Below, one piece after another: positions 5,321-35,811 of a stretch of DNA of 35,811 nt. The notes beneath the pieces were generated by a model, which was not told where the DNA came from, searched no databases, and was given only the letters and a program-made list of their open reading frames with translations. The first letter of the stretch is position 1. Each line of letters starts with the position of its first letter. The position numbers were made by a program, and so were the translations under genes. Location of the stretch: assembly GCA_051453625.1 (NCBI GenBank), contig JBOZIK010000001.1, positions 11,133,067 to 11,168,877 on the forward strand, written 5' to 3'. Source of the DNA: Welwitschia mirabilis (taxonomy: Eukaryota).

Positions 5321-6894
5321 AATTCAAGGAAGTCTAAAAGGTTGATTTTCACTATTTAAGTAAGCAATTTAATTTTAAGATGTTTACTTGTGTAGTATTT
5401 ATATATAATTTTTATTCTTCTTAGGTTAGTTTGCACTTTTACTTTCTTAGTTAGATTACTTTTCCAAGTTTTAGTAGTTTTACTTTTGGATATTACCATC
5501 ATTTTTCATAAACTTGATCTACACTTCGTGCTACATCCTTTGTTAGTATAGCCTTGTTCTTACACTTCATGTGATCTAGAAGGGAGTTTTCCACTTGGAT
5601 GTAAAAAAATGTAAAGTAATGATTACCTAGAAAAAGCCTCAGGGGAAAAAGTAATCTGTTAGCCAAAAAATTAAAGAAGTATTAACGAACCTTAATTCAA
5701 TAACTCAAGATAAAAAAGTTTCATTTCAATCTAGAATAGAGGAAGATGATTTTTTTGCTTTTCAAATTTCTGAAACTAATTTAAATATTTCTAAAATTAA
5801 TTTCTTTAAACCATTTTCCTCTTCAAATCCCATCTTTCAAGCATTTGTTTTCTTTAAACCTACAAAAATATCTACCTCTGCTTCTATTCCTACTTCTACT
5901 TTAACTCTCAAGGAACTTATAGCTCAAAGAAAAATAGAGATCCAAAACCCCTTTGATCTACCAAATGAAGATGATGTAGAACTCAAAAACTTACAAAACT
6001 ACCCTTCCTTCTTAGGAGAAGATAAAGAAGACCCCTTTCAACACTTAGCAAAAATAGAATAATTCATTCTTACTTCAGAAAATGGGAAAAAGAAGATAAA
6101 TGATAAAACTTACATGATTATTTTTCCTTTAATCCTTAGAGGTAAAGCTAAAAATTATTGAAAACTATTTCACCTAAAAGCCTTAAGACTTAGAGTCAAG
6201 TTCAAGATGCATTCATAAAAAGATGCATGAGTGAAGCAACCATGAGGAAAAGAAAAAAAGAGATCACCAACTTTGCACAACAACCTCATAAGGATTATGC
6301 TATAACTTATGAAAGATTTTTAATTGATACCTCATTTAATCTTGTAGATGAATTTTCAAGAGTAGAACTTGTTAACTACTTCTATAGTAAACTAAAGAGT
6401 AAAACTAAATAACTAGTAGATTTTGCATTAAATTTAGTGAACTTAACTTTGGAGGATGCTTGGAAAATTTTGGAAGGATTAGTGGAAATTAGTCAAACAC
6501 AGCCTAAAGCAATCATTAAAAAAAATAGAACTATAAGGCACATGTTAAAAGACATTAAGAAAGTACAAAATGAAGAGTAAACTAGCCCTAGAAACCTAGT
6601 TCAAGATTTACTAACATATTAAAAAATTACACCAAGGACTTAGATGATGCTAAAATAGTAAATCAACAACCTCAACTGTCAATACCTTATTCTTCTTCTT
6701 ATGAAATATATGAAGACAACTCCCATTACACCAAATATTGCTCTGCTTTTCCAATATGTAGATAAATAATTTATCAAAAATCATGTGCATTCAATCGAAG
6801 ATCTAATACTTCAAAAAACAATCAGTAATTTCAACCATAAAATATGAGATACAACCAGCCTTTAGACCCTATTTTCATAACAGATATAAAAGCA

Positions 6895-6970
6895 ACAATT
6901 TTCATCCTAATAACTTTCAGCTAAATAGCTTTCATTCTAATAATTTTTAGCCTCATAACTTTCAACCCAA
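6895..6970 (+). repeat. 15-bp minisatellite encoding (Q/H)PNNF-like pentapeptides, copy 1
   Basis: NNFHPNNFQLNSFHSNNF*PHNFQPN. Confidence 0.8.
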
Positions 6971-7257: not shown

Positions 7258-7357
7258 NNNNNNNNNNNNNNNNNNNNNNNNNNNNNNNNNNNNNNNNNNN
7301 NNNNNNNNNNNNNNNNNNNNNNNNNNNNNNNNNNNNNNNNNNNNNNNNNNNNNNNNN
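7258..7357. other. Assembly gap (100 N)
   Basis: N run; falls between the two gag duplicate blocks. Confidence 1.
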
Positions 7358-7448
7358 AACCCCATACCTTTATCATTAATTAACAATTTCAATAGCAAAA
7401 TATGGAATCAGTTTTTAGATCCTTTTTTGATAATAGATATAGGAGAAA

Positions 7449-7585
7449 TAACTTTAAATCTAATAATTTTTAGTTCAAAATTTTCAACCCAACAAGTTTC
7501 AACCTAATAATTTATAGTCTAATAATTTTCAATCCAAAAAATTTTACTCCAATAATTTTTATCCCAATAACTTTCAATCTTACAA
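7449..7585 (+). repeat. 15-bp minisatellite encoding QPNNF-like pentapeptides, copy 2 (longer)
   Basis: Units such as caacctaataattta, tactccaataatttt, tatcccaataacttt. Confidence 0.8.
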
Positions 7586-8129
7586 CTCTTCTAAGGATTA
7601 TTTCCTTAGAGTCCTTCAAAAAAAAAAAGGAGAAAACCTTATAGGTATATTTTAACAAAACATGCTAGGAAATCAAAGACCTAATTCTTCCTTATAACTC
7701 AAACCATTCTAATTCAAAATGATATTAAAAATAATTAAAAGATAGTATTAAAAAGTAGACAACTCCCAATGAAAAAGCCCCACTTCTTACAATCAAAAAG
7801 ATCTAAACCATCATGATGACATAGAAGTTCTTGATCAACCTAGCCTTTCTTTATCTCATAAAGAAAAATCCAATCATAGCATAACCAATGAGAACATGAG
7901 AAATAAACCAACTCCTTCTTGGTTAGAAAGACTAAAGAGTAATCCCACCTATTATGATTACCTTAAGGCAAGTATGCAAGATGTGAGTATCAACCTATCT
8001 TTCTAGAAAATACTGTAAGATAATCATAGATACAACAAAGTCTAAAAGGATTTAGTCAAGAGAAAATAGAAAAAAACCATACCAAGTAGGGTGTTCATTG
8101 CTAATCCCTTTCTAATTTACTAGCATAAA

Positions 8130-10539: not shown

Positions 10540-11545
10540 TCAAATCATGCACAAATGTGTGCTAGACTAGAAGTAATATGATATCCTTACTCTTTGTCAT
10601 CATAAAGTATGTGGAGGTTATTTTAATGGCCAAAAGACTTCTATGAAAATCTTTCATGCAAACTTCTATTAGCCTATCCTCTTCAAAGATTTATTTAACT
10701 TTAAAGAAAATATTATGCTTGTAAATGTTTTGGTAGTATTTCCAGATCTTAAGACATGCCTCTCCAACCTATCTTAGAGTGTTATCCTTTTGATTATTGG
10801 GGCATAGATTTCATAGACCCTCTTACACCATCTTCTTATAATAAAAATGACATCCTAGTGGCCATGGCTTATCTGACCAAATGGGTAAAAGTCATTCCTA
10901 TAATCATAAATGATATCAAAACAATGTGTTCTTTTCTTAGATCTAATATTTTCCATGGATATAACTTTCTTAGAATCTTGATTAGTGACAAAGGCACTCA
11001 CTTTATAAATAAGATTCTTAGAAAACTTATCCTCTCTATTAGAATTAAGCATAGAATAGTAAATGCTTATCATCTTCAAACTAATGGTACTTTGATCTTA
11101 TTGTACTACTTATCATCACTTGGTTTTTTTCCTTATGAACTTGTGTATGGTAAAGCCTTTGTTCTTCCCATTGATGTGTGCTATAATTCTTATAAAACCA
11201 TCCATCAACTTAATGTTATAGATTTTTATGATAATATACAGCATACACTAGTCCAACTTCAACATCTTGATGAGAAACACAATCATGCTATTCATAAACA
11301 ACTCATCAAAAACCTTAAGAAAAATTTTACCATGACAAAAAGCTTATCTCTACATCTTTTCAACTAATTAGTTGGTTCTATTATTTAATACTTAACTACA
11401 TATTATTCATGATAAATTGGCTTTTAAATGTCTAGGTCGTTAATGAATAGAGGAAGTACATATTAATGACATTATTGAGATTTTTAATTTAAACACTCAT
11501 GAAATGTTCAAAGGAAATGGACAATGGTTGAAGTTATATAAATCA
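10540..11545 (+). pseudogene. Integrase (Gypsy pol), degenerate, with internal deletion
   Basis: CHHKVCGGYFNGQKT zinc-finger region; MPLQPILECYPFDYWGIDF; ILISDKGTHF; YHLQTNG; PYELVYGKA; FKGNGQWLKLY (cf. FKVNGQRLKHY). Confidence 0.92.
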
Positions 11546-12998: not shown

Positions 12999-13674
12999 TA
13001 TTGTAAGTCTAATTGGTCATATTTAACATCATGTTAAGAGTAATTTTCAGGCATATTTAATAGTTTTTCAAGCTAAATAGGAAGAATATGAAGCTTAATA
13101 AAGATGATCACATAGAACACCAAATTTAGAGATAATAAGCCCTTTTTTGGACATATTTCACACTTCCTAAATTTTTTAGAGAATGATGAATCTAGTGTAG
13201 GATGATGGATGATGATTTGGATGCTAGAGGAAGAAGAAAAGGATATTATCCACCTCATCACCTAGATGATAATCATGTGGAAAATAATCAAAATCAATAA
13301 ATAAAGAAACTAGGATTCTACTGACAGTTGTCCACCATGTCATCCGAATGACACTTGAGAGTATGATAGTTATTGAAGCACCTAAATCAGATTTGAAGAT
13401 GTACCTGGAACATAACAGTGTATACCATCAAAATTAACTCCTCTGGAAGATGCACAGACATGCTAATTAGCTCAAAAGCCATGATCAAATTAAGGAGAAC
13501 ATCGATCTTAGTTAATTTACTTGCAAAAGGTGAAGAAAGATTAATTTCAATAGGAGAAAGCTTAATATGGTAAGAGGGAAGCCAATTCTGACATAAATAA
13601 GTAGAAAATACTAAAGATTATTTGTCATCCATCTCGTCTTCTAGACGAGATTAATAGAATCAAAAGAAATAAAA

Positions 13675-14257
13675 NNNNNNNNNNNNNNNNNNNNNNNNNN
13701 NNNNNNNNNNNNNNNNNNNNNNNNNNNNNNNNNNNNNNNNNNNNNNNNNNNNNNNNNNNNNNNNNNNNNNNNNNNNNNNNNNNNNNNNNNNNNNNNNNNN
13801 NNNNNNNNNNNNNNNNNNNNNNNNNNNNNNNNNNNNNNNNNNNNNNNNNNNNNNNNNNNNNNNNNNNNNNNNNNNNNNNNNNNNNNNNNNNNNNNNNNNN
13901 NNNNNNNNNNNNNNNNNNNNNNNNNNNNNNNNNNNNNNNNNNNNNNNNNNNNNNNNNNNNNNNNNNNNNNNNNNNNNNNNNNNNNNNNNNNNNNNNNNNN
14001 NNNNNNNNNNNNNNNNNNNNNNNNNNNNNNNNNNNNNNNNNNNNNNNNNNNNNNNNNNNNNNNNNNNNNNNNNNNNNNNNNNNNNNNNNNNNNNNNNNNN
14101 NNNNNNNNNNNNNNNNNNNNNNNNNNNNNNNNNNNNNNNNNNNNNNNNNNNNNNNNNNNNNNNNNNNNNNNNNNNNNNNNNNNNNNNNNNNNNNNNNNNN
14201 NNNNNNNNNNNNNNNNNNNNNNNNNNNNNNNNNNNNNNNNNNNNNNNNNNNNNNNNN
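13675..14257. other. Assembly gap with identical 50-bp flank overlap
   Basis: 13625-13674 is repeated at 14258-14307. Confidence 0.95.
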
Positions 14258-14591
14258 TCATCCATCTCGTCTTCTAGACGAGATTAATAGAATCAAAAGA
14301 AATAAAACTTATAATTTCACTACTGATAGTCATCCACCTGTTTGTCTGAACAATACCTAGGATGGTACCTCATCTATGAAACTCAAATGTCATCAAGAAG
14401 GCCTATGGATGATCAGAAGCCATTAGAAGAAGAGAATAACCATCATCCACCATGTCGTCTGGACGATATCCAAGTGAACAATAGCTATAAAGAACAAAAA
14501 ATGAATACCATCAATTATGAAATCATTGTTATGATAACCTCTAGTCTATTACAACTCTTTAGCAACCCTAATAGTCATCCCAAATCCATGA

Positions 14592-14673
14592 ATACCCCAC
14601 TAAGTCCCTCATTTCTCATCTTTGGTGTATCGATACCCCACTAAGTCCCTCATTTCTCATCTTTGGTGCATCG
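14592..14673 (+). repeat. 41-bp tandem duplication (2 copies, 1 mismatch)
   Basis: ataccccactaagtccctcatttctcatctttggtg(t/c)atcg x2; single copy in the 5' LTR (~4308-4350). Confidence 0.95.
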
Positions 14674-16439
14674 ATTGGTCTTGGGACGATTTTGGAGATT
14701 GATTAAGTAAGGGATCCATCCTAGTTGTAGAGAAGGGTTAATTAATAAAGTTATTGATTGAAGTGTTCTTGTTAAATTACTTTCTGATCTTCATTATAGT
14801 TTACGTTAATTACATTTAAATGATAGATATTTCTAATTAATATAGATTATGAGGGCTAACTTGGGTAACAACAAGTTAGTGCACTTGATTGGGATTTGCA
14901 TTTAGATTTGCATCCATCATTGCATCTTGCACTCGTTGCATCATTGCATTTTAATTCTAAAGTAAGATTAGGAAATCAATTTAGTTTTATTCTTTTTTAT
15001 TCAAGCAATCTTCTAAATTCCTCTTTAGAATTCCTCTCTAAAGTATGACATTTAGGTTAAATCCTATATGCTCGTGTGTTTTATGCGAGTTTATTGAGAT
15101 TTATAGGTATTAAAGATAAATAATTCATTGGAAGAAAATATAAGATTGATTACACAATTCGCATAATAACACCCATTGAAACAAAATTCCCAAATTACTT
15201 ATTCCCTTCATATACTTTAAAACTTTATAATTAAATTTTGATAATTCTATTTTGATTTATAAATCTATCCTGGTAATATTCCAACAACATGAAAAATATT
15301 AAAATAAGTATTAATGATATATATAAGGTTTATAATCAAATTTTATTATAAATATTTATTTTCATCTAGTAATTCTTCATCAATAGTTAGCTCAATGTTT
15401 TATTTCATTAGGGTAAATACTAATTTTTTATTATCCATGACAAGTTTATTTAACATCTTACCTATGTCATTTAACTAATTAAAGAAAATATAGTTATTTA
15501 TTTGACCTAGTTTCACATCAAAATAGTATTTCATGAATTCCAAATCCATGATGTTGAACTATTTACAAGCTATTTCATCACTTTTACAATATTCTCTTGA
15601 TTGTTTTTACTAATCAAAATATCATCTAAAGATATAATAAGATATGTCCCCTCACATTTTACATACTCACGTATCTCAAAATCCATTATCACTGAGATTT
15701 TTTAGCTTAACGAATCCTATACATGGCTCTTAATTACTTTAAATCATGGAGTGACTTATTTAGTTTACATGCCTTATCACTTTTATTCCTTTACCTTTAA
15801 ACCTTTAATTTGTGCCACATAAATCTCTTTCTTAAACTACTTACTCAAAAATGTTGTCTTTAGGTTGAGCTAATACATCTTTTATCCTCTATAATGTTAA
15901 TGCATCCAAGGTTCTAATGGTTTATTGTTTTTTTTATTAGTGTATAAAATTTGTGTAGTTAACTTCTGCTTCTAAGAAAATGTTTTTCAAGCAATTTGAT
16001 CTTACATTTATTAAGTATTCCATCAAAATTATTGCAAAATGTTTATTGGTTTTTTACAAATTTAATTTTCCTAAAAGTGAGTTCACTAGTTTTAAAGTTA
16101 TGTTTTATGCTTCATACTTATGGCATGTATCCACTATGAATAATTTACTAATCCTTTGAATGTTGTTAATTCATTGGCATAAGTGAGATGAAATTCTGAA
16201 GGATTAGTTTCAATTTTAGGTTTTTTCATCCTTGCATACCTTTTTCTTTCTTTTTCGTTTTTTGAATAAGTTAAAATTTAGTTCTATGATGGCTAATGCA
16301 CTACTAATTAAAACATATTTACTTATTGGTAAATTAGAACATAATTCTTCAAAGGAAAAAAAGGATAACATGCTTCATGACATCCTTTACATATAAGAAT
16401 AGCCTTAACAATTTGTGACTCATAAGCAAGCAGATGATT

Positions 16440-17848: not shown

Positions 17849-18968
17849 TAAATTTTATTGTTACTAAGTACATGAATTAAAAGGCTTTAATTTCATGATG
17901 ATAGCAACATATGAAAAACTCAAGGTAACTAGCAAAGGTAAGATCTGTTTTATTGAAAGAAGATTTTAAGGTTCATGAGTGTTTTGAACAACCCTTTCTC
18001 TAGAGCAAAAAGTAGTAGTATAAGGTTTAAACTATTTTACATGTACGATTTGAAGTTTTCATATTTTTGTTATTATAAAGAAGCAAATCAAAATTTCTAC
18101 TATGTGTAAAATAAAATATTAAATTAGATGTTTGTTAAGATTACACTAAACATAAAATTAAAAAAAATGTTAATATCTATTAATGTTATAATATCAAAAA
18201 TTTTCTCTCTCAACTTTAACATCCCTTAAGATGGCACTGCTAAAACTAGGTTTTCAACTTTGATGCATGTTAGAGTTACAATATGAAATTTGCTCCTTTG
18301 ATTCTCATCCTTCAAATTTCACTTCCTCAACTTGATTCTTGTCATAGTTGCACCATTGTACCTATCACAACATGAAAAATTGCTAATGTAAAATTAAGTT
18401 ACTTTTAATAAATAATAATCACTATAGTGATAGTAGGTAATTACCATTATGATTTACTTTTAGATATGATAAGGCATGAAATATTTCAAGAGATAACATG
18501 ACATGGAAAAACTAGAAATATAAGTTATTGATCAAAATAAAACTCTAATTTGATCAAAATTGAAAAAGTAGTAAATAAAAGAACCATGACTTTGAAAAAT
18601 TTTAAAAATAATGAGATTTACTTAATTTTTTAAAATAAAAATAAGAATATATCAAACTAGAAAATTTACATTGGGGAGGGGGGCGTGGGAGAAAGGAGTA
18701 GGAGTGAAAATGCCCTAGCATAATGGAAGGAATTAAACTATTTGACAAAAAGGAGAATATTCTACAGGATACTCAAAGAAAGACTGAAAACAAAACAAAA
18801 TTGGGGGTGTTGGTTCCCTTGGGTAGAATAACTAGTAGAAGCTAAAACTAAACTAGGAAAGCAACCTGAAAGAAAAGGAAAATTTAAAAAGGGAGACAGG
18901 AACATCCTAATTAGGTGTGAAGAAGAAAATTGAATAACAAGAAGGGGAACATTCTGCAGAAAACGTAG

Positions 18969-19837
18969 NNNNNNNNNNNNNNNNNNNNNNNNNNNNNNNN
19001 NNNNNNNNNNNNNNNNNNNNNNNNNNNNNNNNNNNNNNNNNNNNNNNNNNNNNNNNNNNNNNNNNNNNNNNNNNNNNNNNNNNNNNNNNNNNNNNNNNNN
19101 NNNNNNNNNNNNNNNNNNNNNNNNNNNNNNNNNNNNNNNNNNNNNNNNNNNNNNNNNNNNNNNNNNNNNNNNNNNNNNNNNNNNNNNNNNNNNNNNNNNN
19201 NNNNNNNNNNNNNNNNNNNNNNNNNNNNNNNNNNNNNNNNNNNNNNNNNNNNNNNNNNNNNNNNNNNNNNNNNNNNNNNNNNNNNNNNNNNNNNNNNNNN
19301 NNNNNNNNNNNNNNNNNNNNNNNNNNNNNNNNNNNNNNNNNNNNNNNNNNNNNNNNNNNNNNNNNNNNNNNNNNNNNNNNNNNNNNNNNNNNNNNNNNNN
19401 NNNNNNNNNNNNNNNNNNNNNNNNNNNNNNNNNNNNNNNNNNNNNNNNNNNNNNNNNNNNNNNNNNNNNNNNNNNNNNNNNNNNNNNNNNNNNNNNNNNN
19501 NNNNNNNNNNNNNNNNNNNNNNNNNNNNNNNNNNNNNNNNNNNNNNNNNNNNNNNNNNNNNNNNNNNNNNNNNNNNNNNNNNNNNNNNNNNNNNNNNNNN
19601 NNNNNNNNNNNNNNNNNNNNNNNNNNNNNNNNNNNNNNNNNNNNNNNNNNNNNNNNNNNNNNNNNNNNNNNNNNNNNNNNNNNNNNNNNNNNNNNNNNNN
19701 NNNNNNNNNNNNNNNNNNNNNNNNNNNNNNNNNNNNNNNNNNNNNNNNNNNNNNNNNNNNNNNNNNNNNNNNNNNNNNNNNNNNNNNNNNNNNNNNNNNN
19801 NNNNNNNNNNNNNNNNNNNNNNNNNNNNNNNNNNNNN
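18969..19837. other. Assembly gap in the LINE 3' UTR
   Basis: N run; aaacgtag occurs on both sides. Confidence 1.
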
Positions 19838-19990
19838 AAACGTAGGGACATACTATAAAAAGGGCAAAATTGGGACCAAAAGAGCCCCTTAAGAAATGAA
19901 CTAACAAAAAACTGAATCTAAACTAAGTAAAAAACTTGAAAGGATAAGCGACTAGTATCCCATATATAGGGGAAAGAGATTGTCATGATT

Positions 19991-20173
19991 ATGCTCTAGT
20001 AAAAAGCGTCCCATTTCGTCAGATAACACCTTAAAGGCCTAATTAACCTTCTTAAATTATTTAGCTCCTATTTCATTCTTGTCTGGGTGTAGTCTAAGTG
20101 ATTTCTTCCTATAGCTTGACTTGATTGCTTATGGTAAGACTTCATGAGACATTCCCAGGGTTACAAATGAGTA
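19991..20173 (-). other. DnaJ/Hsp40 J-domain coding segment (HPD at 20089-20081)
   Basis: YSFVTLGMSHEVLP*AIKSSYRKKSLRLHPDKNEIGAK*FKKVN*AFKVLSDEMGRFLLEH matches the J-domain consensus YYxxLGv...IKkAYRklal.yHPDKN....F..i..AyevLSD...R across its whole length. The three stops are TAA/TAG. Confidence 0.92.
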
Positions 20174-21113
20174 TCTCTTTAGCTCATGAATTGTGGCAAG
20201 CATAAACTCCCTTTTCGTAGTTTCCATGTCTATGTCTTCCTAAGAATTATGTTGGCTCACTTCTGATGTAAAATTTATAGTCAACCCTTAGATGGAACTA
20301 GGACTCCTCTTCGGCGAGGTATCCCCTTAAGCCTGGCCAAGGGGTTGCTCCCTTTGCTCTTAGGATTTAGTTGGAAAATTCTCCTGAACTGTCTCTTCCT
20401 GCATTAGAGGTGAATTCGGCTTTTCTATATGAGGTTTTGGGGATGGAATTATCTTTTTCTAAGAGCTGGGATTTCCCTATTCAACATTCCCCTCAAAGTG
20501 ATACGCTTCATCTGTGGTTGCTTTCCTCTTGGACTTTCTTTTAGAAGGAGTCTCCTAAAGGTGTCGCTAGGGGGAGAAGGGGTCTCTCACATCCTAATCT
20601 CACTGGCTGCTTTCTAAAGCATCATGATTAATCTGGAGTATCTTACAATGTCTTTTCAACATAATGCTAGAAAGAAGAAGAAAGGTAGGTTAACATGGTA
20701 TCCTAGATCTAGGGCTTTAAGAAATGCAAAGTGAATGCCTGAAAGATTTAAGTAGCAACTAGATTGAATGAAGTATCGACCTATTAATTTGGCACCCAAG
20801 CCCTAAGGGGCTAATGTACCCACTAGGCAACTTAGGAACACCACTAAGAAAGAAATGGAGTGCCTCTCATTATCCTTTACTTCTAAGAGGAATTCTTTCA
20901 CCAGCTGCCAGAATTTTTAAAAGTCTAGAAAGAGAGTCTTTAGTGATTTTGATGGATATTGTCCTAAAGGTGGTATGCTACCCTCTTCATCTTCTGTAGA
21001 ATGGGATAATATCGACCCTTGGTTCTCCCTTGAGTTTGTGCAGGAGGGTTCCCCATCCCACAGCTTACACCTTATCCCACAACTTAGAGCATCCTTTGAA
21101 CAGGTCAGGATCA

Positions 21114-21213
21114 NNNNNNNNNNNNNNNNNNNNNNNNNNNNNNNNNNNNNNNNNNNNNNNNNNNNNNNNNNNNNNNNNNNNNNNNNNNNNNNNNNNNNNN
21201 NNNNNNNNNNNNN
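21114..21213. other. Assembly gap (100 N) with 93-bp flank overlap
   Basis: 21021-21113 is repeated at 21214-21306 with one mismatch. Confidence 0.95.
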
Positions 21214-21337
21214 GGTTCTCCCTTGAGTTTGTGCAGGAGGGTTCCCCATCCCACAGCTTGCACCTTATCCCACAACTTAGAGCATCCTTTGAACAGGTCA
21301 GGATCAGATGATTCAATAGTAGGAGTTGCTCCCATAG

Positions 21338-24300
21338 CTATGCTAATTTGGAAATGATATCATTTGATTATCTTAATTATATTTATTAGAAATAAAAGGG
21401 GGTGTTATTAAAAATCAAATCATTTTTTGTACGCCAAATCTGCCAATAAGTCAAGAAAGTCCTATCATTCATGTATGTGTCAGATGCATTATAGAGATTT
21501 CAGTAACTCATAATTATCATTAAATCATCACTCCATTTGCATTGATAAAAAAGGTGATTAGCATAGTCAGGACAAGCATGGCAGATTAGATAAGTAGTTT
21601 TAACTTAGAAGCCCCTCTTGTGCAGTTAGTTTCTTATGAGAATTTTGTTATTATCCTTCAACCAGAAAAAGACTTTAATTTTATCTAGAATTTGGCCCTT
21701 CCAGAATTTCTTATTAGTGTCATCTTTTCCATTTTTTTTTTTTGAAGAATCTTCTTGGTTGTATCTTTATGGTAAATGTTTAAGTCTATCAGATATCTGT
21801 TATCTCTACATAGTTATTTTATTAGATAAGATTCTCCCTGAACGGTGTTCCAATTAGGGTATTTAGAACTAATTAAGCCACTCCATAGCTGTTCTCCCTT
21901 GAACAGCCTTTTCAGAATCCGGTGAGCTCCTGTAAGGAGATAATCCTCTGGTCTCTAAATACTCCAACCTCTAGAGTCCTTTCGTCGAGCTATTGTCTTC
22001 CATTTGCATAGATGAATGCAATTTTGATCTTCACCTCCCAACTAAATAAATTCCTTTAGAATTCCATTGATTTTTTGAATGACATTCTTTTAGAAAGCAG
22101 CGGGGCGGCGGGGGACGCGGGGGGAGGGTGGGGGGGGGAATGGTTGGGAGGGGGAAAGGGGGCGATAACAAAATCTATGTATCTAAAAGAAGAGATTAGA
22201 CATGAGTTTGTTAAGATAATCTTTTCTTTAGAGGAGAGGAAGTTATTCTATCAAGATTTAAGAATATAGTTCCAAGTGAGGGTCTTATGCTAATTCCGTA
22301 ATGGGATTCCCAGGTAGATGTCTGGAAGGTATCCTAATTTGATGTTGAAACGTCTAGTGATTTCATCCCCGCCAATGCGATTTCTACCCAAGGGATGAAT
22401 TTTGGCTTTACTCCACTTAGTGTGGAGACCTGTAGCTTCTACAAAAAAGTTCATGGAATTCTTAATTGCTCTTTCTTGTTGACATAAGACCTTGGTCATG
22501 ATGATAGTGTCATCTGTATAATGGTTATTAATGAATGTTTGACCTCTTATCTTGATACCAGAAACTCCATTAGTTTTAAAAAACCCCTGTAAGATGTTTA
22601 TGACAAATAGGAAAAGATATAGGCATAGATGGCCTTCCTGTTTTAATTCTTTACCAACTAAGAAAAATTTAGAATTGTGGTCATTAACCTTCACACTAAA
22701 TTCAACTGAAGCTTGCATGTATAGCTAAAGGTTTATGATCTCTTGGTGAAATCTAGTATTTGTAAGAATACAACCTAAAGCTAGCTAGCTAATAGAGTTA
22801 TAAGCTTTTGTTATGCCTAATTTAGCAATAAGAAGAGAAAATTTATGCTTTTTAACAAAATTTATAATTTCATGAGTCAAGAGGATTTGGTCCTAGATAT
22901 ATCTAGATAGGATGAAGTCGACTTCATTTTCAGAGATCACCTTGAGTAGCAAGAGGGGTAATACTACCTACCCTGAATTTCACAAAGATTCTATAAATAA
23001 CTTTGCAAATATTTAAAGGTCTAAAGTCTTTCAGTTTATTGGCATCCCCTTTTTTTGGAAACAAGAATGATCCTAGTTCTATTCATTTCCATGGGAATGC
23101 ATTTGTTGTGAAGAATATCTTGCATGACATGTTGAAGGTTGTGCCCCAAGATAGAGAAGTAAGATTTGAAAAGTTCAACTTGCCACCCATCTGGTCCTAG
23201 AGCTCCATTATTCTTCATTGACCTAATAGCTAACAGGACTCCATCTCTGCCCAGGGGTTTAGTGAGTTGGGTATTATTCTTATTGGAGATTCTCTTATTT
23301 TTTGAAATAAGATCAGGGGTGATATCATCCCTTTCCGAGATTCTTTTGAGATGAACCTACATTTCATTAGATATTTCTTGTTCATTTTCACTTATGTGGT
23401 CTCTAGTGATAAGCCTCTTGATCCTATTATCAGCTTTATGCTAATTAGCTTGCTGAAAGAAAAACCTGATGTGTTTGTCCCCCTTCTTAAGCCACTTAAT
23501 CCTTGATTATTTTCTCTAATAGTTTTCCTCATTAGCATATATCTCTTGGAGTTTGATGAGGCATTGATATTCCTTGTCATAGAGGCTGTCTTGGTCTCCT
23601 CCCTCTTCCTACTTAGTTTGGATTCTTTAGATCTCTTTTTCAAGGTCATTTTTGAATTTAAATCTTTCTTTGTTTTTCCTCGTCCAGTCCTTTATATGGG
23701 CTTGTAAGGTGTTAAGACCTCTGTAGAGGAAAGTTTATGGATGAGTATCATCATACTGACTTCAAATTTTTTATTAGAGTTCTGGGGTTTCTATCCTAGT
23801 AATCTAGTAACGTTCCATGCAAAATGGAATCCTCCAGGGTATTATCGCGCCAATTCTGTATTTGATTGGATGGTGATCCGAAGCTATCTAATTCAGTCCA
23901 TAGGCTTCGATTGAGAGCTTTACTAAGTTATTTTCTATGAGAATTCTGTCAATTTTAGACATTATCAGATTGCTTATCCTTCTATAAGACCAGGTGTATT
24001 TACACCAAGCAAGTGTAACATCTACAAGGGCATTCTATGCCATGAAGTCTTTAAGAATTGAAGCCCCTTTGGAATTCCAGTTTTCATCCCTTAATTTCTC
24101 CCAACGATGTAGGCATTGATTAAAGTCTCCCACTATGAGCCACTTGGATTTCCCTATCGCAATCTACTGTAATTCCCCTAATGTGGAAGCTTTATCTTGA
24201 TTATTTTAAGGACTATAGATGTTAGTTATAGTTCAGCCTTATTCCTTAAGAAAAATAGTTAGGTGGTTCTTGCTACTTTTAAGTAAGTCTGCCTCCTTAT

Positions 24301-24511
24301 TTGTGATAATCATGAGGCCTTCTGAGTTTCTTTAAGATGCAAAGATAAAAGTATTCCACTACTACTATAGATTCTTTAGTTTCATTCCATCCCTCATTTT
24401 TGTTTCTTGTAAACAAACTAATTTAATATTAAAATGGTTGATAAGATTTCTTAGGGTCTTTTTCTTGCAGGAGGACCCTAATCCCCTATAGTTCTAAGAG
24501 AGACAATCCAT
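21338..24511 (-). pseudogene. LINE ORF2 (APE endonuclease, RT, C-terminal zinc-binding region)
   Basis: MDCLS*NYRGLG...LVCLQETK; WLIVGDFN; SDHHPI; ALGPDG; DFRPL; HYTDDTII; YLGIPL; HLFYQC; YWQIWRTKNDLIFNN. No RNase H domain seen. Confidence 0.92.
22097..22164 (+). repeat. G-rich low-complexity tract (potential G-quadruplex) interrupting LINE ORF2
   Basis: gcagcggggcggcgggggacgcggggggagggtgggggggggaatggttgggagggggaaagggggcg. Confidence 0.85.
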
Positions 24512-25602
24512 TAGGTCTGTTTTTGCCTTTTTTTGGAAGCTTAACCTTTTTTTAGAGTATCTTCGATGGTATCTTGGGAGCTACTGGCCACATTCTCTAT
24601 AGTTTCCCTTTCTCAGAGGGTTCTGCTACTAGGTTTTTCTCTCATTTGAACTTTCACATCATTCGACTCTTCTATGTTTGATGGATTTTGAGGTTGATAA
24701 GTGTCCCCTTCTTCCATAAGAGGTTGGAAGGAGTTGTACTTCCTCTCTTGTTCCTTCTTCTCTTTGCTTTCCTTGGTTTCCTTGGGGAAAATCATAGTGC
24801 TCTTCACCACTTTTTCCTTCTTCTGTTTATGCTGATAGATGCTCTGATTTTGTTCAGTTTTTTGACAAAAAGAATAGATTTCTTTTCGTTTTTCTTCAAT
24901 ATCAATTAACTGTTTTCCACATTCTTCCCTTATATGGCCCATTCTCCCACAATGAGAACATCTCTTTTCTGTAAAAAGGCATGTTCCTGAGATGTGTCCT
25001 TATTTTTCATAAATTTTAAATGGAACCAGGAGGTTCTTATAGGTAACTTTAAGATCACATATGCCCCATTTGGATCTGAACTTTACAGATTGTATCTCCT
25101 TTGTGTCTTCTAAGCTCATCCAAATGTAAAATCTAGCAAGGACTAACCTTGTCTATTTAATGGTTATTATATCAAGCTTAATCAGTTCACCAAACTGGGA
25201 TGTGATTTTCCTTAGGAGCTCTTCATCCCAAAACTCTAAAGGGAACTTGTGGATGTGGATTCATATTGACAGTTTCCTGAAAAGATTCGGGTCCATTTAG
25301 CTAGGGTGAGTCCCCTCACTCTAGAAAGCCAAGGTCCTCTCGCTATGATCTCATCCCAATCTCATTCATTGTCCAACTAAAAAAGCACTAATCCTTCTAG
25401 CATAATAACTTCAACTTTACTAACTCCTGTCCATTTTGTTGTTACTCATTCTCTCATAAGATCAAGCCTTAGGTATTGGATTGGATGAAACGAACTCACC
25501 GATTAAACTGTATTGGAGTTTCTTCTCTGTCTTCAAGCAAGCACTTTCATTAATATCTAAGACTAGGATTTTTCCTTTCCTAGAGATCTAGGTCTTCTCC
25601 AT
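24511..25602 (-). pseudogene. LINE ORF1 (DUF4283-type region plus CCHC zinc knuckles)
   Basis: MEKT*ISRKGKILVLDINESACLKTEKKLQYSLIGEF; IIARGPW; IHIHKFPLEFWDEELLRKITSQFGELIKLD; CSHCGRMGHIREEC preceded by a decayed second knuckle (GHISGTC); ends SKKRQKQT*. Confidence 0.85.
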
Positions 25603-27349
25603 TTTGGGGAACAAGCCCCTCTTTAAACCCTAAATTAAATCAATGTAGCGGTAACAACGAAATTTCATAACTTACCCGAAGAGTGTCTGTCTGGTGGCCA
25701 ATATCACCCCTTGCACACTGTAACTTCCCAAAATAGAACTACCCCACAAATTCGAAGTCTTCCAAACCCTAGCTCCCTCCTGTGCTCCAGATTCGCCGAC
25801 TGCAATCCAAAATCATTTGACATAGGTGTAATTTCGAGATTTACTAGATTAAAAAAATACATTTTATACTCCTTTTAATTACATTTCCATCCTTCTTTCT
25901 CCTTTAATACTCTGGAGATTGATCAATAGAAATCTTGATGTATGAAATTGAGATTTACTTAAAAAACCATTGAATATGCTATAAGAAGTTATAAACATAA
26001 GTTATGAACAATATAAAATTTATAAAATCTATATAGTTCAATATGTAAATGAGTATTATAGATTGGATATTCTTTAATAATAGACGATATAATACCATTT
26101 TAAATGATGTTAGGTTTCCATGAAATGAGTATATTTTTTTTTTTCTCCCTTAAAAAGGATTTTCATAGTTAGATACATTCAACTATGCATAATAAGAAGA
26201 GATATTGAATTTAAAAGTTTTAATGTACATACCTACCCTTAGAAGCACAACCACCATGAATATTCAAATGAATAATGTAATTATGTCTAGTGCCTCATAG
26301 TGTACAGAGTGACACATTGAAAGATTCTAACTTTCCACCTATTAAATAAAGAACAAGTGTTCCACTTGGGTTACCATCTTAGTTGCATGTTATTATTATT
26401 GTTTCATTAAATAAATGATTATAATTATCATTACACATACATACAATTCTAAGAATGCTTTGCAATTACTAAATATCTTCTATCATCTATTATTTGAGGA
26501 TATCCAACTTCTAACACAAGATGAAATCATTCCATGGATATCAATGCTCATTGACAATTGCCATAAAATTGCAAACTCAATAATAAACAATAATAATATC
26601 ATTAATCAATTACAATAATATGATTACTCGTTATGATAACAACTTGCAGAAAATTAAAAATCGTCTAGAGAATGATGCACAACCTCATGCAACCATTAAA
26701 GAAGCACGAAAGAAAATGCGAGAATCTTTAGAGAAAGAAAGGAAGTGGAAACTAGAAACATTAAATAAGTCAGAAGCCAAATAAATTATGCTACTTACCA
26801 TCCACTGCATAATTCAAGGGATAAAAACCTATCTTATGATGCATTGTACATTTTTTGCCCATGAATCAATGTGTATTAATATGTATGTTTTAGTTTATAA
26901 ATTTTACAAATACCACTTTCATAAGATCCAAAAATGTCTAAAAACAGTATTATGAAACCAGTTTAAGCTATGTCATCTAACAACATACTTTAGAAGATTT
27001 TAGATGTCTAAAGGAGAAATGTAACAATGAAATCTAATTTTGCATCCTAAGTTTTTCACAATGTCATCTAACATTATACCTCTCATAGTATCTTAAGTTT
27101 GCCAAAGAAAATATTAGTGCTACTCTTCTATGTTAGGCAATTTTCTTCCTTTATAGCTACAAGCAAAAATAATAGTTCTTTTAAAAATGTGAATACAAAT
27201 TGAAGCTTCTAAGGAAAAAGGGGGATAAAACAATTTATGGAATGATTATTGGGGGTGTTGAACTTGAAACATTTAATCACCCAAACAAATGATTTAGTTA
27301 CACTCAGACCTTATAGTTCTGAAATTATTATCGTCTCATTGAACCCTGA

Positions 27350-32253: not shown

Positions 32254-34032
32254 TATTCTTTGCTATAATTATATTTATCAAATATATGGAGACATGTCAT
32301 TTGTAACCATCTCCGAGGCCATCCAAGATATATGAAGAAGTTTCTTTAGAAAACTTAAAAAAAATGGTGCTAGATCTGTTTTATCTATCATATCATCATA
32401 GCTATAACTTTCTCATATAAAATACTTTTAAGAAGCTGCAAAATGTTTGGAATCCTTGTTTAACGAAAAAGCACTCAGAAATCTTTTCCTTTGGAGGTCA
32501 TTGAATAAGGGAGACAGGCCAAACTTTTTGTCAAAACCATTTTATCAGCATATCCTTTATACTCTTTTGATGTAGGTCTAATATCATTTAGGCTTGCTAG
32601 TTTAGAGTTTGGAATACAAAACTATTAAGTTCCACATCTTATGTATATATCACAGCTCACTTATCATACAATTGTTTGTTTTGAGCATTTTGTTAAAGCA
32701 AGAGCTGCTTTAAAATTTAAATAATCAGAAGTTAAAGAGAAAGTTTACTAAAACTCATGCGCCACACTTATATCTTACTTAGAAATGCTCTTTCTCCTGT
32801 TTGAATACATGAAAATCCTTAAAACTAATGAAAACTTCATGTTGTTCTAGGCTTGTTGCCTTCCTGAGTCTATCATCAAGTTTGTTGATTTTTGCTCAGT
32901 TTGGGTGGTGACTCTAAGTTTGATGAGCAAAATGAGTTTGCTACTATGGTTGTAACAGAAGGATGGAAAGATAAGATTCTGTTAATATTTTAGAACTTCT
33001 TTATATCAACATATGAAAAATGGTTTATGGTCAAAGATAGATGAATCAATGTGATAATTTTTAGGAGATAGGGTATCAGATTCCTATCTAGATAACTTGA
33101 AAATCCAACTAGAAAGAAATGTATTTGCACCTGCAGAAAGTATAGAACCAAAGAAAATGGGACCTTTGATAGGTTCTTCCCAGAGTCTTTTTGATTGATT
33201 ATTCTCTTACTTAGGCCAAAGGATTTCTGGCTATTCCTTTTACTTGCGTATAATGAAATTGAATTCTTGTCTTTATGTATAGAAGTTGTTTCTTTGTTTC
33301 TATGGTTCAAGTTATGTAATAATCTTACATTTCATACAAGACGTAGTTTGTACATTATCAAATTTTGTCCTGCATGACAGCACTTTCTATTGAATAGAAA
33401 GACACATATTTTTTAATTTCATACCACTGTTCTGTTTCTTGTTTTCTTGAGTATTAGGCTAAAAAGAATTTTAATTTGTTTCCCTCATTCTCTTTCCTTT
33501 ATGAGTGCATACATCCAACAAATTTGGTCCTCAGTGCTATGTTCAAATTATTTTGGCTACTTTTGGTTGCTACTCAATTTACATGACAACCTTTTCATTA
33601 CAGCATAATGTCTGTTAATTCTGTTTTGTGTACTGCCAGTGGCTTATTGGTGGATATGGTGCTTTCAAGTTATTATCTGCACATTGCAATTATTCCTTTG
33701 TTCAAAGCTCTTTATTATGTCGCCTCCGATCTTCTTGAGGAGAAGGCAATTGATTACTAAAAAGGAAATTCTCCATTATTGCTTTAATTTTTAGTTTACT
33801 TGTCCATACATTAAAAGTTGCGTTTTTTGATTTATTAAAGGTTTCTCTTACTGGGATGCTCTGGTTATCCAAAAAGAGATATCAGCTATAAACTTTCACA
33901 GCTGTGTGTCATCTTCCATTAAACAGTTCATACATGAATCAAGACTCTTATGTTTGTATCATCTAGAACCAATACCTGATTAAAATTTCAGAACTAGTAA
34001 CCATCTCACAATGAAAGAAATATTAATCTTTC

Positions 34033-34763: not shown

Positions 34764-35811
34764 AAAATGTAATCAATAGAAATAATATACTGCAGGATCA
34801 AGGATGGCCTGTGTTTTAAGTGTACAACTCTTCCTCCTTTAGATTTATTTTGTCTTTTGGATTGCTCTTGGGACAAACTCAGCAAAATATTGTTTATGAT
34901 ATAATGCTTATTCATATTGTTTTAATTCTTTTATTTTTTTCCCCTTGCATTTAATGCTCAAAATTTTCATGGTCAATGAACTGCTTTTGCCCCATGAGGT
35001 AGAAAGCCATATTGGCTCCCAAATAACATGTCTGGAAACAGAGCAGTCCTGTATTAATATCAGCCAAGAAGGCTACACAAGCATTAGCCACTAGGCAGTG
35101 CATGGCAACTCTTTCATGTAGAGTAGCAGGCAAGAATTTAGAATATTAACATAACCTCATAGAAACTATGCAGAGCAAACTATTTCACTTGTAAAGAAGG
35201 TATGTTTTGTTCTTTAGGAATGTTAGATATTAGAACACTAATGGTAGTATTTGACCAAATTCACTTCCCTAGCAATGGTGATGTAGCATTTCTTATTTAC
35301 TTCATGTGCTACGATTATTTGCTTCAGCATCATATCAATTTATATACGTGAATGTGAAATTCATCAGTATTCTATATTATGTGAAGTCTGAACCATACTT
35401 GTCAGATTAAGACCTGTCACCAAACTCAGAAGGCAGTCTGGACTGGGACTCACCATTCAAACTAGGCAAAACTTGGCACACTCGGTGCAAACTCGGGAAG
35501 GCCAAAAGAGTTTCGAATAACATGCATTTTCATTAGTTTTAAGGATTTTTATGTATTTAAACAGGACAAGGAGTATTTTGAAGTAAAATATAAATGTTGT
35601 GTAATCCAAAATCATAATTAACGCGTGATAAACACATTCACCAGTTTCAGTAATTGTTGTCTTCAGCTGTTGATTGTCTAAACTTTGAAGTATCAAGTGC
35701 TTTAATAAAATACTCAAAACAAGCATAAATCTTTTGTAGGACACAGTTTTGACCTAAATGCGTAGTAAGGCCCAAAACCTTCACAAGGATCTTTTAATGA
35801 CTCAACAGTAA

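What the first reader, a model, noticed from the sequence alone, without database searches (positions are those of the whole stretch)
19952..20550. A LINE retrotransposon appears to encode its own DnaJ/Hsp40 J-domain
Seen: the minus strand reads YSFVTLGMSHEVLP*AIKSSYRKKSLRLHPDKNEIGAK*FKKVN*AFKVLSDEMGRFLLEH. This is a complete J-domain with an intact HPD, in one uninterrupted frame with ~125 upstream codons of a P/S/E/K-rich linker that includes a basic NLS-like KRKSKRK. Every stop is TAA/TAG (Gln after C>T), which is why the ORF track misses it. It lies between LINE ORF2 and the candidate 3' end/TSD. Known: J-domains stimulate Hsp70 ATPase through HPD, polyomavirus T antigens carry J-domains, and Hsp40/Hsc70 activate hepadnaviral RT in vitro. 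Canonical L1 elements have only ORF1 and ORF2, and I know of no J-domain in them. Inference: this LINE family captured a co-chaperone domain that may recruit Hsp70 for RNP assembly, RT activation, stress-coupled mobilisation or counter-silencing.
Basis: partly seen in the sequence, partly recalled or inferred. Interest (0 to 1): 0.92.

Follow-up and report, generated by a model that had tools for sequence, protein, structure and literature searches.

The report
Broken J-domain inside a plant LINE
A dead plant LINE retrotransposon carries in its long 3' tail a broken remnant of a J-domain (the part of Hsp40 proteins that switches on Hsp70); the remnant is repeated many times in the genome and is most likely a captured host gene piece, not a working LINE gene.

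Summary
The J-domain is real. Pfam DnaJ gives E 1.8e-11 and 44.4 bits against a cut-off of 27.8, and the HPD motif is intact at 20089-20081 on the minus strand. It is decayed, with 3 in-frame stops, and the match covers profile positions 5-58 of 63.

The "uninterrupted frame" with a 125-codon linker does not hold. That frame has 6 stops in 124 codons, and the other five frames have 4-9. Nothing upstream of the J-domain has detectable homology.

The remnant lies about 1.0 kb 3' of the ORF2 stop of a decayed plant L1-type LINE, on the same strand. It sits inside an insertion bounded by a 14-nt target-site duplication, with an A6 tail before the 3' copy.

In DNA contigs of two organisms the J segment is repeated. 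Its summed depth is roughly 25-80 times that of the flanks, similar to the ORF2 3' end, and other copies are about 80% identical. A one-off retrocopy is therefore excluded.

Best reading (0.5): a host J-protein gene fragment was captured into the 3' region of this LINE lineage, by read-through or template switching, and co-amplified as a passenger. A functional LINE-borne J-protein is not excluded (about 0.15). I could not obtain sequences of other copies.

The parts
25949..25962 (-). 5' copy of the 14-nt target-site duplication (TTAAGTAAATCTCA)
   Evidence: Exact 14-nt match to 18625-18612. 0 of 375 random same-sized window pairs reach 14; the maximum was 13.
25826..25948 (-). Low-copy 5' leader inside the duplication. 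It contains a near-copy of the junction motif at 25856-25827, including a 10-nt AGTAAATCTC at 25845-25836.
   Evidence: Depth in bin 25826-26126 is 8.3/17.3, against 1796/877 in the next bin. The motif near-copy matches at 24 of 30 positions with two gaps.
25129..25463 (-). LINE ORF1 remnant: DUF4283, split over two frames
   Evidence: PF14111 at 21.1 bits (profile 4-65) and 26.5 bits (profile 69-122). Each is just under the 27.2 cut-off.
23873..24493 (-). LINE ORF2 endonuclease (Exo_endo_phos)
   Evidence: PF03372, E 5.9e-10, 39.7 bits against a cut-off of 24.5.
22395..22946 (-). LINE ORF2 reverse-transcriptase remnants, frameshifted
   Evidence: RVT_1 below threshold in two pieces: E 0.09 (profile 34-97) and E 0.039 (profile 130-192). 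One homologue, P0152, carries RVT_1 + zf-RVT (E 9.1e-5).
21527..21742 (-). zf-RVT, the plant LINE ORF2 C-terminal zinc-binding domain
   Evidence: PF13966, E 2.8e-11, 44.4 bits against a cut-off of 27.5.
21383..21388 (-). Double stop that ends the ORF2 frame in this copy
   Evidence: Frame translation.
21114..21213 (.). 100-N scaffold gap whose flanks overlap (21021-21113 equals 21214-21306, 93 nt with 1 mismatch); most likely artefactual
   Evidence: Contigs join 21084 to 21300/21325 in X1 and X3.
20168..21382 (-). Spacer and 'linker' between ORF2 and the J-domain. No recognisable domain on either strand and no coding signal. About 1.0 kb once the gap artefact is collapsed.
   Evidence: Pfam finds nothing. 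The segment is repeated, with depth 263-1665.
20009..20161 (-). J-domain remnant. HPD is at 20089-20081. In-frame stops are at 20131-20129 (TAA), 20059-20057 (TAA) and 20041-20039 (TAG).
   Evidence: PF00226, E 1.8e-11. Best solved match is 2och DNJ-12 at 42.9 bits. Diverged copies about 80% identical were seen in X1 and X3 (records 2 and 10).
19952..20227 (-). Candidate stand-alone frame around the J-domain. It runs from ATG 20227-20225 (G at -3, G at +4) to TAG 19954-19952, 91 codons broken by the 3 stops.
   Evidence: Read. Hypothetical only.
18969..19837 (.). 869-N scaffold gap; the flanks overlap by 8 nt, so it may also be artefactual
   Evidence: 3 of the window's 5 gaps have overlapping flanks (50, 93 and 8 nt).
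18760..18968 (-). Repeated T-rich 3' region after the gap
   Evidence: Bin 18602-18902 has depth 608/384. The unique flank contigs stop at 18759/18758.
18626..18759 (-). Low-copy 3'-terminal segment that ends in A6 (18631-18626)
   Evidence: It is covered by the flank contigs X1 record 1 (0 differences) and X3 record 9. This is the only A run of 6 or more between 21400 and 18560.
18612..18625 (-). 3' copy of the 14-nt target-site duplication

Best explanation
The window holds one old, dead, full-length plant L1-type LINE on the minus strand, at 25948 to 18626. It is about 6.25 kb if the two overlapping-flank gaps are collapsed.

Shown: its 3' region is unusually long, about 1.7 kb after the ORF2 stop. 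About 1.0 kb after that stop it contains a roughly 55-residue J-domain remnant. This is the only recognisable non-LINE coding piece there.

Inferred: an ancestor of this LINE lineage picked up part of a cellular J-protein gene. This happened either by transcription reading through the element's own 3' end into neighbouring DNA (3' transduction) or by the reverse transcriptase switching template. The chimeric RNA was retrotransposed and became a source element. The fragment then spread with the subfamily as a passenger and decayed along with the rest of each copy. In this copy it encodes nothing.
For: LINE anatomy on the minus strand: DUF4283, endonuclease, reverse-transcriptase pieces and zf-RVT.

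Insertion boundaries:
- A 14-nt duplication flanks the whole block, and 0 of 375 random window pairs reach that length.
- A6 lies directly before the 3' copy, and it is the only A run of 6 or more downstream of ORF2.
- The J-domain lies inside this block, on the same strand.

The J segment is repeated:
- Summed contig depth is 914/689 for the J bin and 652/382 and 409/263 for the linker bins.
- The ORF2 3' end has 1008-1197/688-811. The unique flanks mostly have 7-18; the outliers are 1.8 in X1's last bin and about 50 in bin 26127-26427.
- 8-36 distinct contigs cover four linker positions, against 11-69 at ORF2 3' positions.
- Two listed contigs cover the J-domain at about 80% identity (62 of 310 and 67 of 341 letters differ). 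That is like the listed LINE-body pieces, which differ at 14-20% of letters.

Only the J-domain has homology. No other part of a J-protein is present in the window, and the linker shows no coding signal.

The last 134 nt before A6 are low-copy. That is what a further, copy-specific read-through would leave.

Both junctions are present in contigs of organism B and the 3' junction in organism A (records 1, 9, 16), so the insertion is real and not private to this assembly.
Against: - No other copy's sequence could be read. That other J copies sit behind the same LINE is inferred only from similar depth. The tool itself warns that summed depth is not a copy number.
- No parent gene was identified, and the J-domain subtype is undetermined. 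7 of 10 hand-picked hits have the DnaJ + DUF1977 (DNAJB12-type) architecture. However, the best solved match is class A DNJ-12 at 42.9 bits, against 24.5 bits for DNAJB12.
- The J side and the 3' end lie on opposite sides of an 869-N gap.
- 2-3 contigs per run join 18764 to 19974 instead, which is unexplained.
- A second, 10-nt candidate for the 5' duplication lies at 25845-25836, next to the repeat boundary, so the exact 5' end is ambiguous.
- The J remnant keeps 44 of the 75-96 bits that ten intact J-domains score. The reverse transcriptase keeps about 27 of the 99 bits of one intact relative. The J-domain was therefore not obviously more decayed than the LINE's own genes at insertion, which a long-neutral passenger should be. 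This is weak evidence from few references.
Confidence: 0.5

Rival explanations
1. The J-domain is, or was, a working accessory gene of this LINE subfamily. One form would be a small third ORF of 91 codons, from ATG 20227 to TAG 19952. It would recruit host Hsp70 to the element's ribonucleoprotein. This copy is simply dead.
For: - The remnant is inside the duplication-bounded unit, on the sense strand, and repeated at about the depth of the ORF2 3' end.
- HPD and the basic helix II are kept.
- 2 of the 3 J-domain stops fall on Gln positions of the best solved J-domains.
- An ATG in good context lies 19-20 codons upstream of the domain.
- The J remnant is no more decayed than the LINE's own domains.
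- Retroelements are known to acquire extra domains: an R1 LINE helicase (PMC4686597, abstract) and an orchid Ty3/gypsy AlkB (PMC9289625, abstract and passages).
Against: - The J frame has 3 stops in 59 codons; the other five frames there have 3, 9, 6, 8 and 3.
- The frame is not joined to ORF2. The spacer has 12 stops in 187 codons in the J frame.
- No predicted protein with this J-domain exists among 1.84 billion representatives. The best hit scores 53 bits and is a generic J-domain.
- Two RNA-seq runs of organism B put a mean depth of 0.87 or less on the J bin. 185 of 205 and 87 of 93 laid reads were under 90% alike.
- Helix IV is truncated.
- No paper describing such an element turned up.
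Confidence: 0.15
2. The J-bearing segment, roughly 19838-21000, belongs to a different repeat: another transposon or a multi-copy pseudogene family. It landed in the LINE's 3' region after insertion, or only happens to adjoin it at a few loci.
For: - Depth is uneven along the 3' region, from 263 to 1665.
- The two listed diverged J contigs align only over 19980-20289 and 20060-20400, and then run on unlike the window.
- Homology among copies seems to start at about 19974-19980 (joint and record 2).
- The spacer has no LINE-like feature.
Against: - No terminal inverted repeats, long direct repeats, own A-tail or own target-site duplication flank the segment.
- It is on the same strand as the LINE.
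- High depth is continuous from 25825 to 18760, with no drop to flank level between ORF2 and the J-domain.
- Its depth and contig counts resemble those of the ORF2 3' end.
Confidence: 0.2
3. Scaffolding artefact: the J-bearing contig was wrongly placed between the LINE and its 3' end.
For: Two N runs (21114-21213 and 18969-19837) bracket the 1276-nt J-bearing piece.
Against: - The flanks of both gaps overlap (93 nt with 1 mismatch, and 8 nt), as at a third gap in the window.
- Contigs of two runs bridge 21084 to 21300/21325.
- Contigs also link 19974 to 18764.
- The 14-nt duplication pairs the LINE's 5' end with the far side.
Confidence: 0.05
4. One-off processed pseudogene of a host DnaJ mRNA beside the LINE.
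For: LINE machinery makes retrocopies, and the fragment is intron-free over its 55 residues.
Against: - It is repeated. The J bins are about 25-80 times flank depth, and diverged copies exist at about 80% identity.
- It has no A-tail or duplication of its own.
- Only the J-domain of a J-protein is present, with no 3' part of any such gene.
Confidence: 0.03

Closest known systems
3' transduction and exon shuffling by LINE-1, and gene-fragment capture by plant retrotransposons (Bs1, Rider, TRIM)
   Same: Extra non-element sequence lies between the element's coding end and the A-tail plus target-site duplication. The captured exon-sized host fragment is then carried along. The mechanism and the plant LTR examples were read in passages of the review PMC13317346, which cites Goodier 2000 for L1.
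   Different: The plant examples in the passages I read are LTR elements, and I saw no plant LINE case there. Here the captured piece appears amplified to many copies, not a single event. Neither a source locus nor a parent gene was identified.
Retroelements with acquired accessory domains: insect R1 LINEs with a helicase domain (PMC4686597, abstract only); orchid Ty3/gypsy with AlkB (PMC9289625, abstract and passages); plant L1 with an RNase H domain (recalled, not read here)
   Same: A host- or virus-derived domain sits downstream of the reverse-transcriptase region of a retroelement lineage.
   Different: In those cases the domain is in an open frame, conserved across copies and, for AlkB, enzymatically active. 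None of that is shown here.
Cellular J-domains: C. elegans DNJ-12 / DNAJA1 class A, and the DNAJB12/HLJ1 type (DnaJ + DUF1977)
   Same: Helices I-III and HPD are present. The alignment to 2och is gap-free at 42.9 bits, and identity to the DNAJB12-type protein P0008 is 53%.
   Different: It is only a fragment. There is no Gly/Phe region, zinc-finger, C-terminal domain or DUF1977 anywhere in the window. It has 3 stops, and the subtype cannot be assigned.
Viral J-domains (polyomavirus T antigens; recalled, not tested)
   Same: A mobile genetic parasite carrying a J-domain to use host Hsp70.
   Different: Those are expressed, essential N-terminal domains of a viral protein. No expression or intact frame is shown here.

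Membership tests
J-domain (Pfam PF00226 DnaJ) | Significant match to the family profile above the curated cut-off | tested here: met
   44.4 bits against a cut-off of 27.8, E 1.8e-11. 23 solved J-domains match at E <= 1e-3.
J-domain (Pfam PF00226 DnaJ) | HPD tripeptide between helices II and III | tested here: met
   The sequence reads L-H-P-D-K-N, with HPD at 20089-20081.
J-domain (Pfam PF00226 DnaJ) | Full four-helix domain in an open reading frame | tested here: not met
   Only profile positions 5-58 of 63 match, and there are 3 in-frame stops.
J-domain (Pfam PF00226 DnaJ) | Stimulates Hsp70 ATPase | not testable with these tools
   Needs a biochemical assay.
DNAJB12/B14/HLJ1-type J-protein | J-domain followed by a membrane span and DUF1977, with a conserved pre-J segment | tested here: not met
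   A profile of 7 such proteins matches only positions 67-162 of 373, and no DUF1977 is found in the window. The pre-J match is not significant: 317 of 2000 shuffles reach it. The solved DNAJB12 J-domain scores only 24.5 bits.
Plant L1-type LINE | ORF1 (DUF4283 / zinc knuckle), then ORF2 with AP-endonuclease, reverse transcriptase and zf-RVT, all on one strand | tested here: met
   Endonuclease at 39.7 bits and zf-RVT at 44.4 bits are above their cut-offs. DUF4283 (21 + 26 bits) and RVT_1 (13 + 14 bits) are fragmentary and below theirs.
Plant L1-type LINE | A-rich 3' end and target-site duplication | tested here: met
   A6 followed by the 14-nt duplication; 0 of 375 random pairs reach 14. The tail is short, and a 10-nt alternative exists on the 5' side.
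LINE-encoded accessory domain (true element gene) | Open frame, in ORF2 or an ORF of its own, in at least some copies | tested here: not met
   Not met in this copy: stops in the J frame, the spacer and ORF2. Other copies could not be read.
LINE-encoded accessory domain (true element gene) | Present in most copies of the family and under purifying selection | tested here: inconclusive
   Only summed depth and contig counts are available. They are similar for the J module and the ORF2 3' end. No sequences of other copies were obtained.
3' transduction | Non-element sequence between the element's own 3' end and the new A-tail/duplication | tested here: inconclusive
   There is about 1.7 kb after ORF2, including a low-copy last 134 nt. 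The family's canonical 3' end is unknown.
3' transduction | The transduced piece matches the flank of a source locus or a parent gene | not testable with these tools
   No genome is held for this window.
Processed pseudogene | Single copy with its own A-tail and duplication | tested here: not met
   Repeated, with no tail or repeats of its own.

The most novel reading that the evidence does not exclude
An L1-type LINE subfamily of this plant carries its own small J-protein gene, about 91 codons downstream of ORF2. Active copies would use it to draw host Hsp70 onto the element's RNA-protein particle. This would be the first co-chaperone module known in a non-LTR retrotransposon.
Probability: 0.13. 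Interest if true: 0.85.

Novelty: new member of a known kind. Interest (0 to 1): 0.4.

Why it matters
If the passenger reading is right, this is a plant LINE lineage that captured an exon-sized host gene piece and multiplied it. That process is well documented for human L1. In the review passages I read it was illustrated for plants only by LTR elements (PMC13317346). It would show how LINEs scatter chaperone-domain fragments that could seed new genes or small-RNA targets.

If the functional reading is right, it would link retrotransposition to the Hsp70 system through an element-encoded co-chaperone. That would be a new kind of LINE accessory gene.

Either reading can be settled quickly with the full genome, by cataloguing the J-module copies.

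Tried and rejected
- **Whole-genome search:** no genome is held for this window.
- **Word-index protein searches:**
  - J plus linker at near lengths gave 0 hits from 21 candidates.
  - The ORF2 C-terminus against longer proteins gave 0 from 154.
  - The reverse-transcriptase ORF against longer proteins gave 1 from 104: P0152, with RVT_1 + zf-RVT and no DnaJ.
  - None of these is informative about LINE-J fusions.
- **Exhaustive representative search:** only generic J-domains. There is no close relative, and no long LINE-like protein among the best 150.
- **Metagenome scan:** 9 loci, all generic J-domains at 37-48% identity; not used further.
- **Earlier findings of this scan:** nothing by place, words, sequence or relatives.
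- **RNA evidence:** no RNA holder was listed by the run search.
- **RNase H or any other domain in the spacer or tail:** none on either strand.
- **DNAJB12-type origin:** rejected as unproven. The pre-J helix match is not significant, and the solved-structure ranking disagrees.
- **Tandem duplication of the tail across the 869-N gap:** weak. The score is 43 against a shuffle mean of 31.7 (sd 5.0, maximum 49).
- **A second J-domain hidden at the gap edge:** not supported; 170 of 300 shuffles reach the score.
- **Other copies inside the window:** none.
- **Protein-atlas look-up of the J frame:** I did not pursue it elsewhere.
- **Literature:** five searches found no paper describing a LINE, or any other retrotransposon, carrying a J-domain. 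One further search failed on term syntax. Supplementary files were not consulted.

Full report
**What is in the sequence.** The window is AT-rich, transposon-rich plant-like DNA with five N runs. No whole genome is held for it.

On the minus strand at 20161-20009, with every stop read as X, Pfam's DnaJ model matches at E 1.8e-11. The score is 44.4 bits against a cut-off of 27.8, over profile positions 5-58 of 63. The same match appears in a 3000-residue frame translation and in a six-frame scan of the whole window. HPD is intact at 20089-20081.

Three stops interrupt the domain: TAA at 20131 and 20059, and TAG at 20041. In gap-free alignments to the two best solved J-domains (C. elegans DNJ-12 at 42.9 bits, and DNAJA1), two of the three stops fall on Gln. 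The end of helix IV is missing or diverged.

**The linker claim fails.**
- In 20176-20550 the J frame has 6 stops in 124 codons; the other five frames have 8, 8, 7, 4 and 9.
- Further upstream the J frame has 12 stops in 187 codons and a TGA.
- The exhaustive search of 1.84 billion representatives gave 221 hits at E <= 1e-3 and none at 1e-10. The best scored 53 bits, and all hits were driven by the J-domain.
- An apparent pre-J helix resemblance to DNAJB12-type proteins is not significant: 317 of 2000 shuffles reach its score.
- The strand is 37% A here, and another frame also yields a basic run.
- So only about 55 residues are homologous to anything.
- The subtype is open. 7 of 10 hand-picked hits are DnaJ + DUF1977 proteins. 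The solved DNAJB12 J-domain, however, scores 24.5 bits against 42.9 for class A DNJ-12.
- No other part of a J-protein is present in the window.

**The LINE.** The same strand carries DUF4283 (25463-25129, split over two frames) and an AP-endonuclease (24493-23873, 39.7 bits). It also carries two sub-threshold reverse-transcriptase pieces (22946-22395) and zf-RVT (21742-21527, 44.4 bits). The ORF2 frame ends in a double stop at 21388-21383. This is the anatomy of a plant L1-type LINE, heavily decayed, with a CpG observed/expected ratio of 0.25.

**Boundaries of the insertion.**
- A 14-nt word occurs at 25962-25949 and again at 18625-18612. 0 of 375 random window pairs of the same sizes share 14 nt; the maximum was 13.
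- The 3' copy is directly preceded by A6, the only A run of 6 or more between 21400 and 18560.
- The insertion is therefore 25948 to 18626, and the J-domain lies inside it, about 1.0 kb after the ORF2 stop.
- A caveat: a 10-nt part of the word recurs at 25845-25836, next to the repeat boundary, within a 24-of-30 near-copy of the junction. The exact 5' end is therefore ambiguous, but both options enclose the J-domain.

**Assembly.**
- The 100-N gap between ORF2 and the J side has flanks that overlap by 93 nt with one mismatch.
- The 869-N gap after the J side has flanks that overlap by 8 nt.
- A third gap has flanks that overlap by 50 nt.
- Contigs of two public runs join 21084 to 21300/21325.
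- The gaps therefore look artefactual. With both collapsed the element is about 6.25 kb, with about 1.7 kb after ORF2.

**Repetition.** Logan contigs of one DNA run each of organisms A and B were laid at 80% likeness or better.
- The flanks mostly have summed depths of 7-18 (18000-18601 and 25826-27000). The exceptions are 1.8 in X1's last bin and about 50 in bin 26127-26427.
- The block 18760-25825 is high throughout. The J bin has 914/689, the linker bins 652/382 and 409/263, and the spacer 1665/931.
- The ORF2 3' end has 1008-1197/688-811, and the conserved ORF2 parts reach about 8000.
- 8-36 distinct contigs cover four linker positions, against 11-69 at ORF2 3' positions.
- Two listed contigs cover the J-domain at about 80% identity. 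The listed LINE-body pieces differ at 14-20% of letters.
- The tool warns that summed depth is not a copy number. Even so, the J segment is clearly a dispersed repeat of about the same abundance as this LINE's 3' coding end.
- Flank contigs cover both junctions in organism B and the 3' junction in organism A, so the insertion is shared.
- The first 123 nt and the last 134 nt inside the duplication are low-copy.
- Two RNA-seq runs of organism B put almost nothing on the region. Mean depth on the J bin is 0.87 or less, and most laid reads are under 90% alike.

**Interpretation.**
- A one-off retrocopy is excluded. The segment is repeated and has no tail or duplication of its own.
- A mis-scaffold is unlikely.
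- The best reading (0.5) is capture of a J-protein gene fragment into the 3' region of this LINE lineage, followed by co-amplification as a passenger. The low-copy terminal 134 nt before A6 suggests that this lineage does read through its own 3' end.
- A nested or merely adjacent unrelated repeat (0.2) cannot be excluded without other copies. No termini of such an element were found.
- A functional LINE-borne J-protein (0.15) remains possible. An ATG in good context at 20227 opens a 91-codon frame around the domain. The J remnant also keeps about half of an intact domain's score, which is no worse than the LINE's own domains.
- Against the functional reading, there is no open frame, no expression and no homologous predicted protein.

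**Literature.** Five searches found no retrotransposon with a J-domain.
- The review PMC13317346 (passages) describes 3' transduction and plant LTR-element captures. I saw no plant LINE example in those passages.
- Domain acquisitions by retroelements are reported in PMC4686597 (abstract) and PMC9289625 (abstract and passages).
- PMC3753637 (passages) lists chaperones and a DnaJ homologue among human L1 ORF1p-associated proteins.
- Supplements were not seen.

**Verdict.** This is a new member of a known kind, gene-fragment capture by a retrotransposon. A small but testable chance remains that it is a true LINE accessory gene.

Noticed in passing
window 13675-14257, 18969-19837, 21114-21213: At three of the five N runs the left flank's end repeats as the right flank's start (50 nt exact, 8 nt exact, 93 nt with 1 mismatch). 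These gaps look like unmerged contig overlaps, not missing sequence.
   Followed up: partly
window 18764 / 19974: 2 contigs (X1) and 3 contigs (X3) join 18764 to 19974. That joins the end of the J-domain almost directly to the low-copy 3' terminal segment and skips 18765-19973. This could be an alternative haplotype, another copy or a source locus; it is unexplained.
   Followed up: no
window 25826-25948 and 25827-25856: The first 123 nt inside the 14-nt duplication are low-copy, and the junction motif recurs 115 nt further in (24 of 30 positions). This could be 5' extra sequence (5' transduction) or a small local duplication at the 5' junction.
   Followed up: partly
window 3451-5297 vs 13117-15171; ORF 10753-11367 (+): Several direct repeats at 77-85% identity are spaced about 9.7-10.3 kb apart. 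Between them lies a 204-codon ORF that reads like a retroviral-type integrase core (by eye only). This is probably an LTR retrotransposon with its two LTRs.
   Followed up: no
window 6878-6965 and 7431-7592: Arrays of a 15-nt period A/T-rich repeat lie on both sides of the 7258-7357 gap.
   Followed up: no
window 32764-32834 / 35527-35597: A 71-nt inverted repeat, 87% complementary, with arms 2.7 kb apart spans another N gap. It could be the termini of a DNA transposon.
   Followed up: no
window 19838-26000: The CpG observed/expected ratio is 0.25 across the LINE block. Transitions dominate the differences to other copies: C>T 491 and G>A 483, against 14-112 for each transversion type in X1. 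This is consistent with methylation-driven decay.
   Followed up: partly
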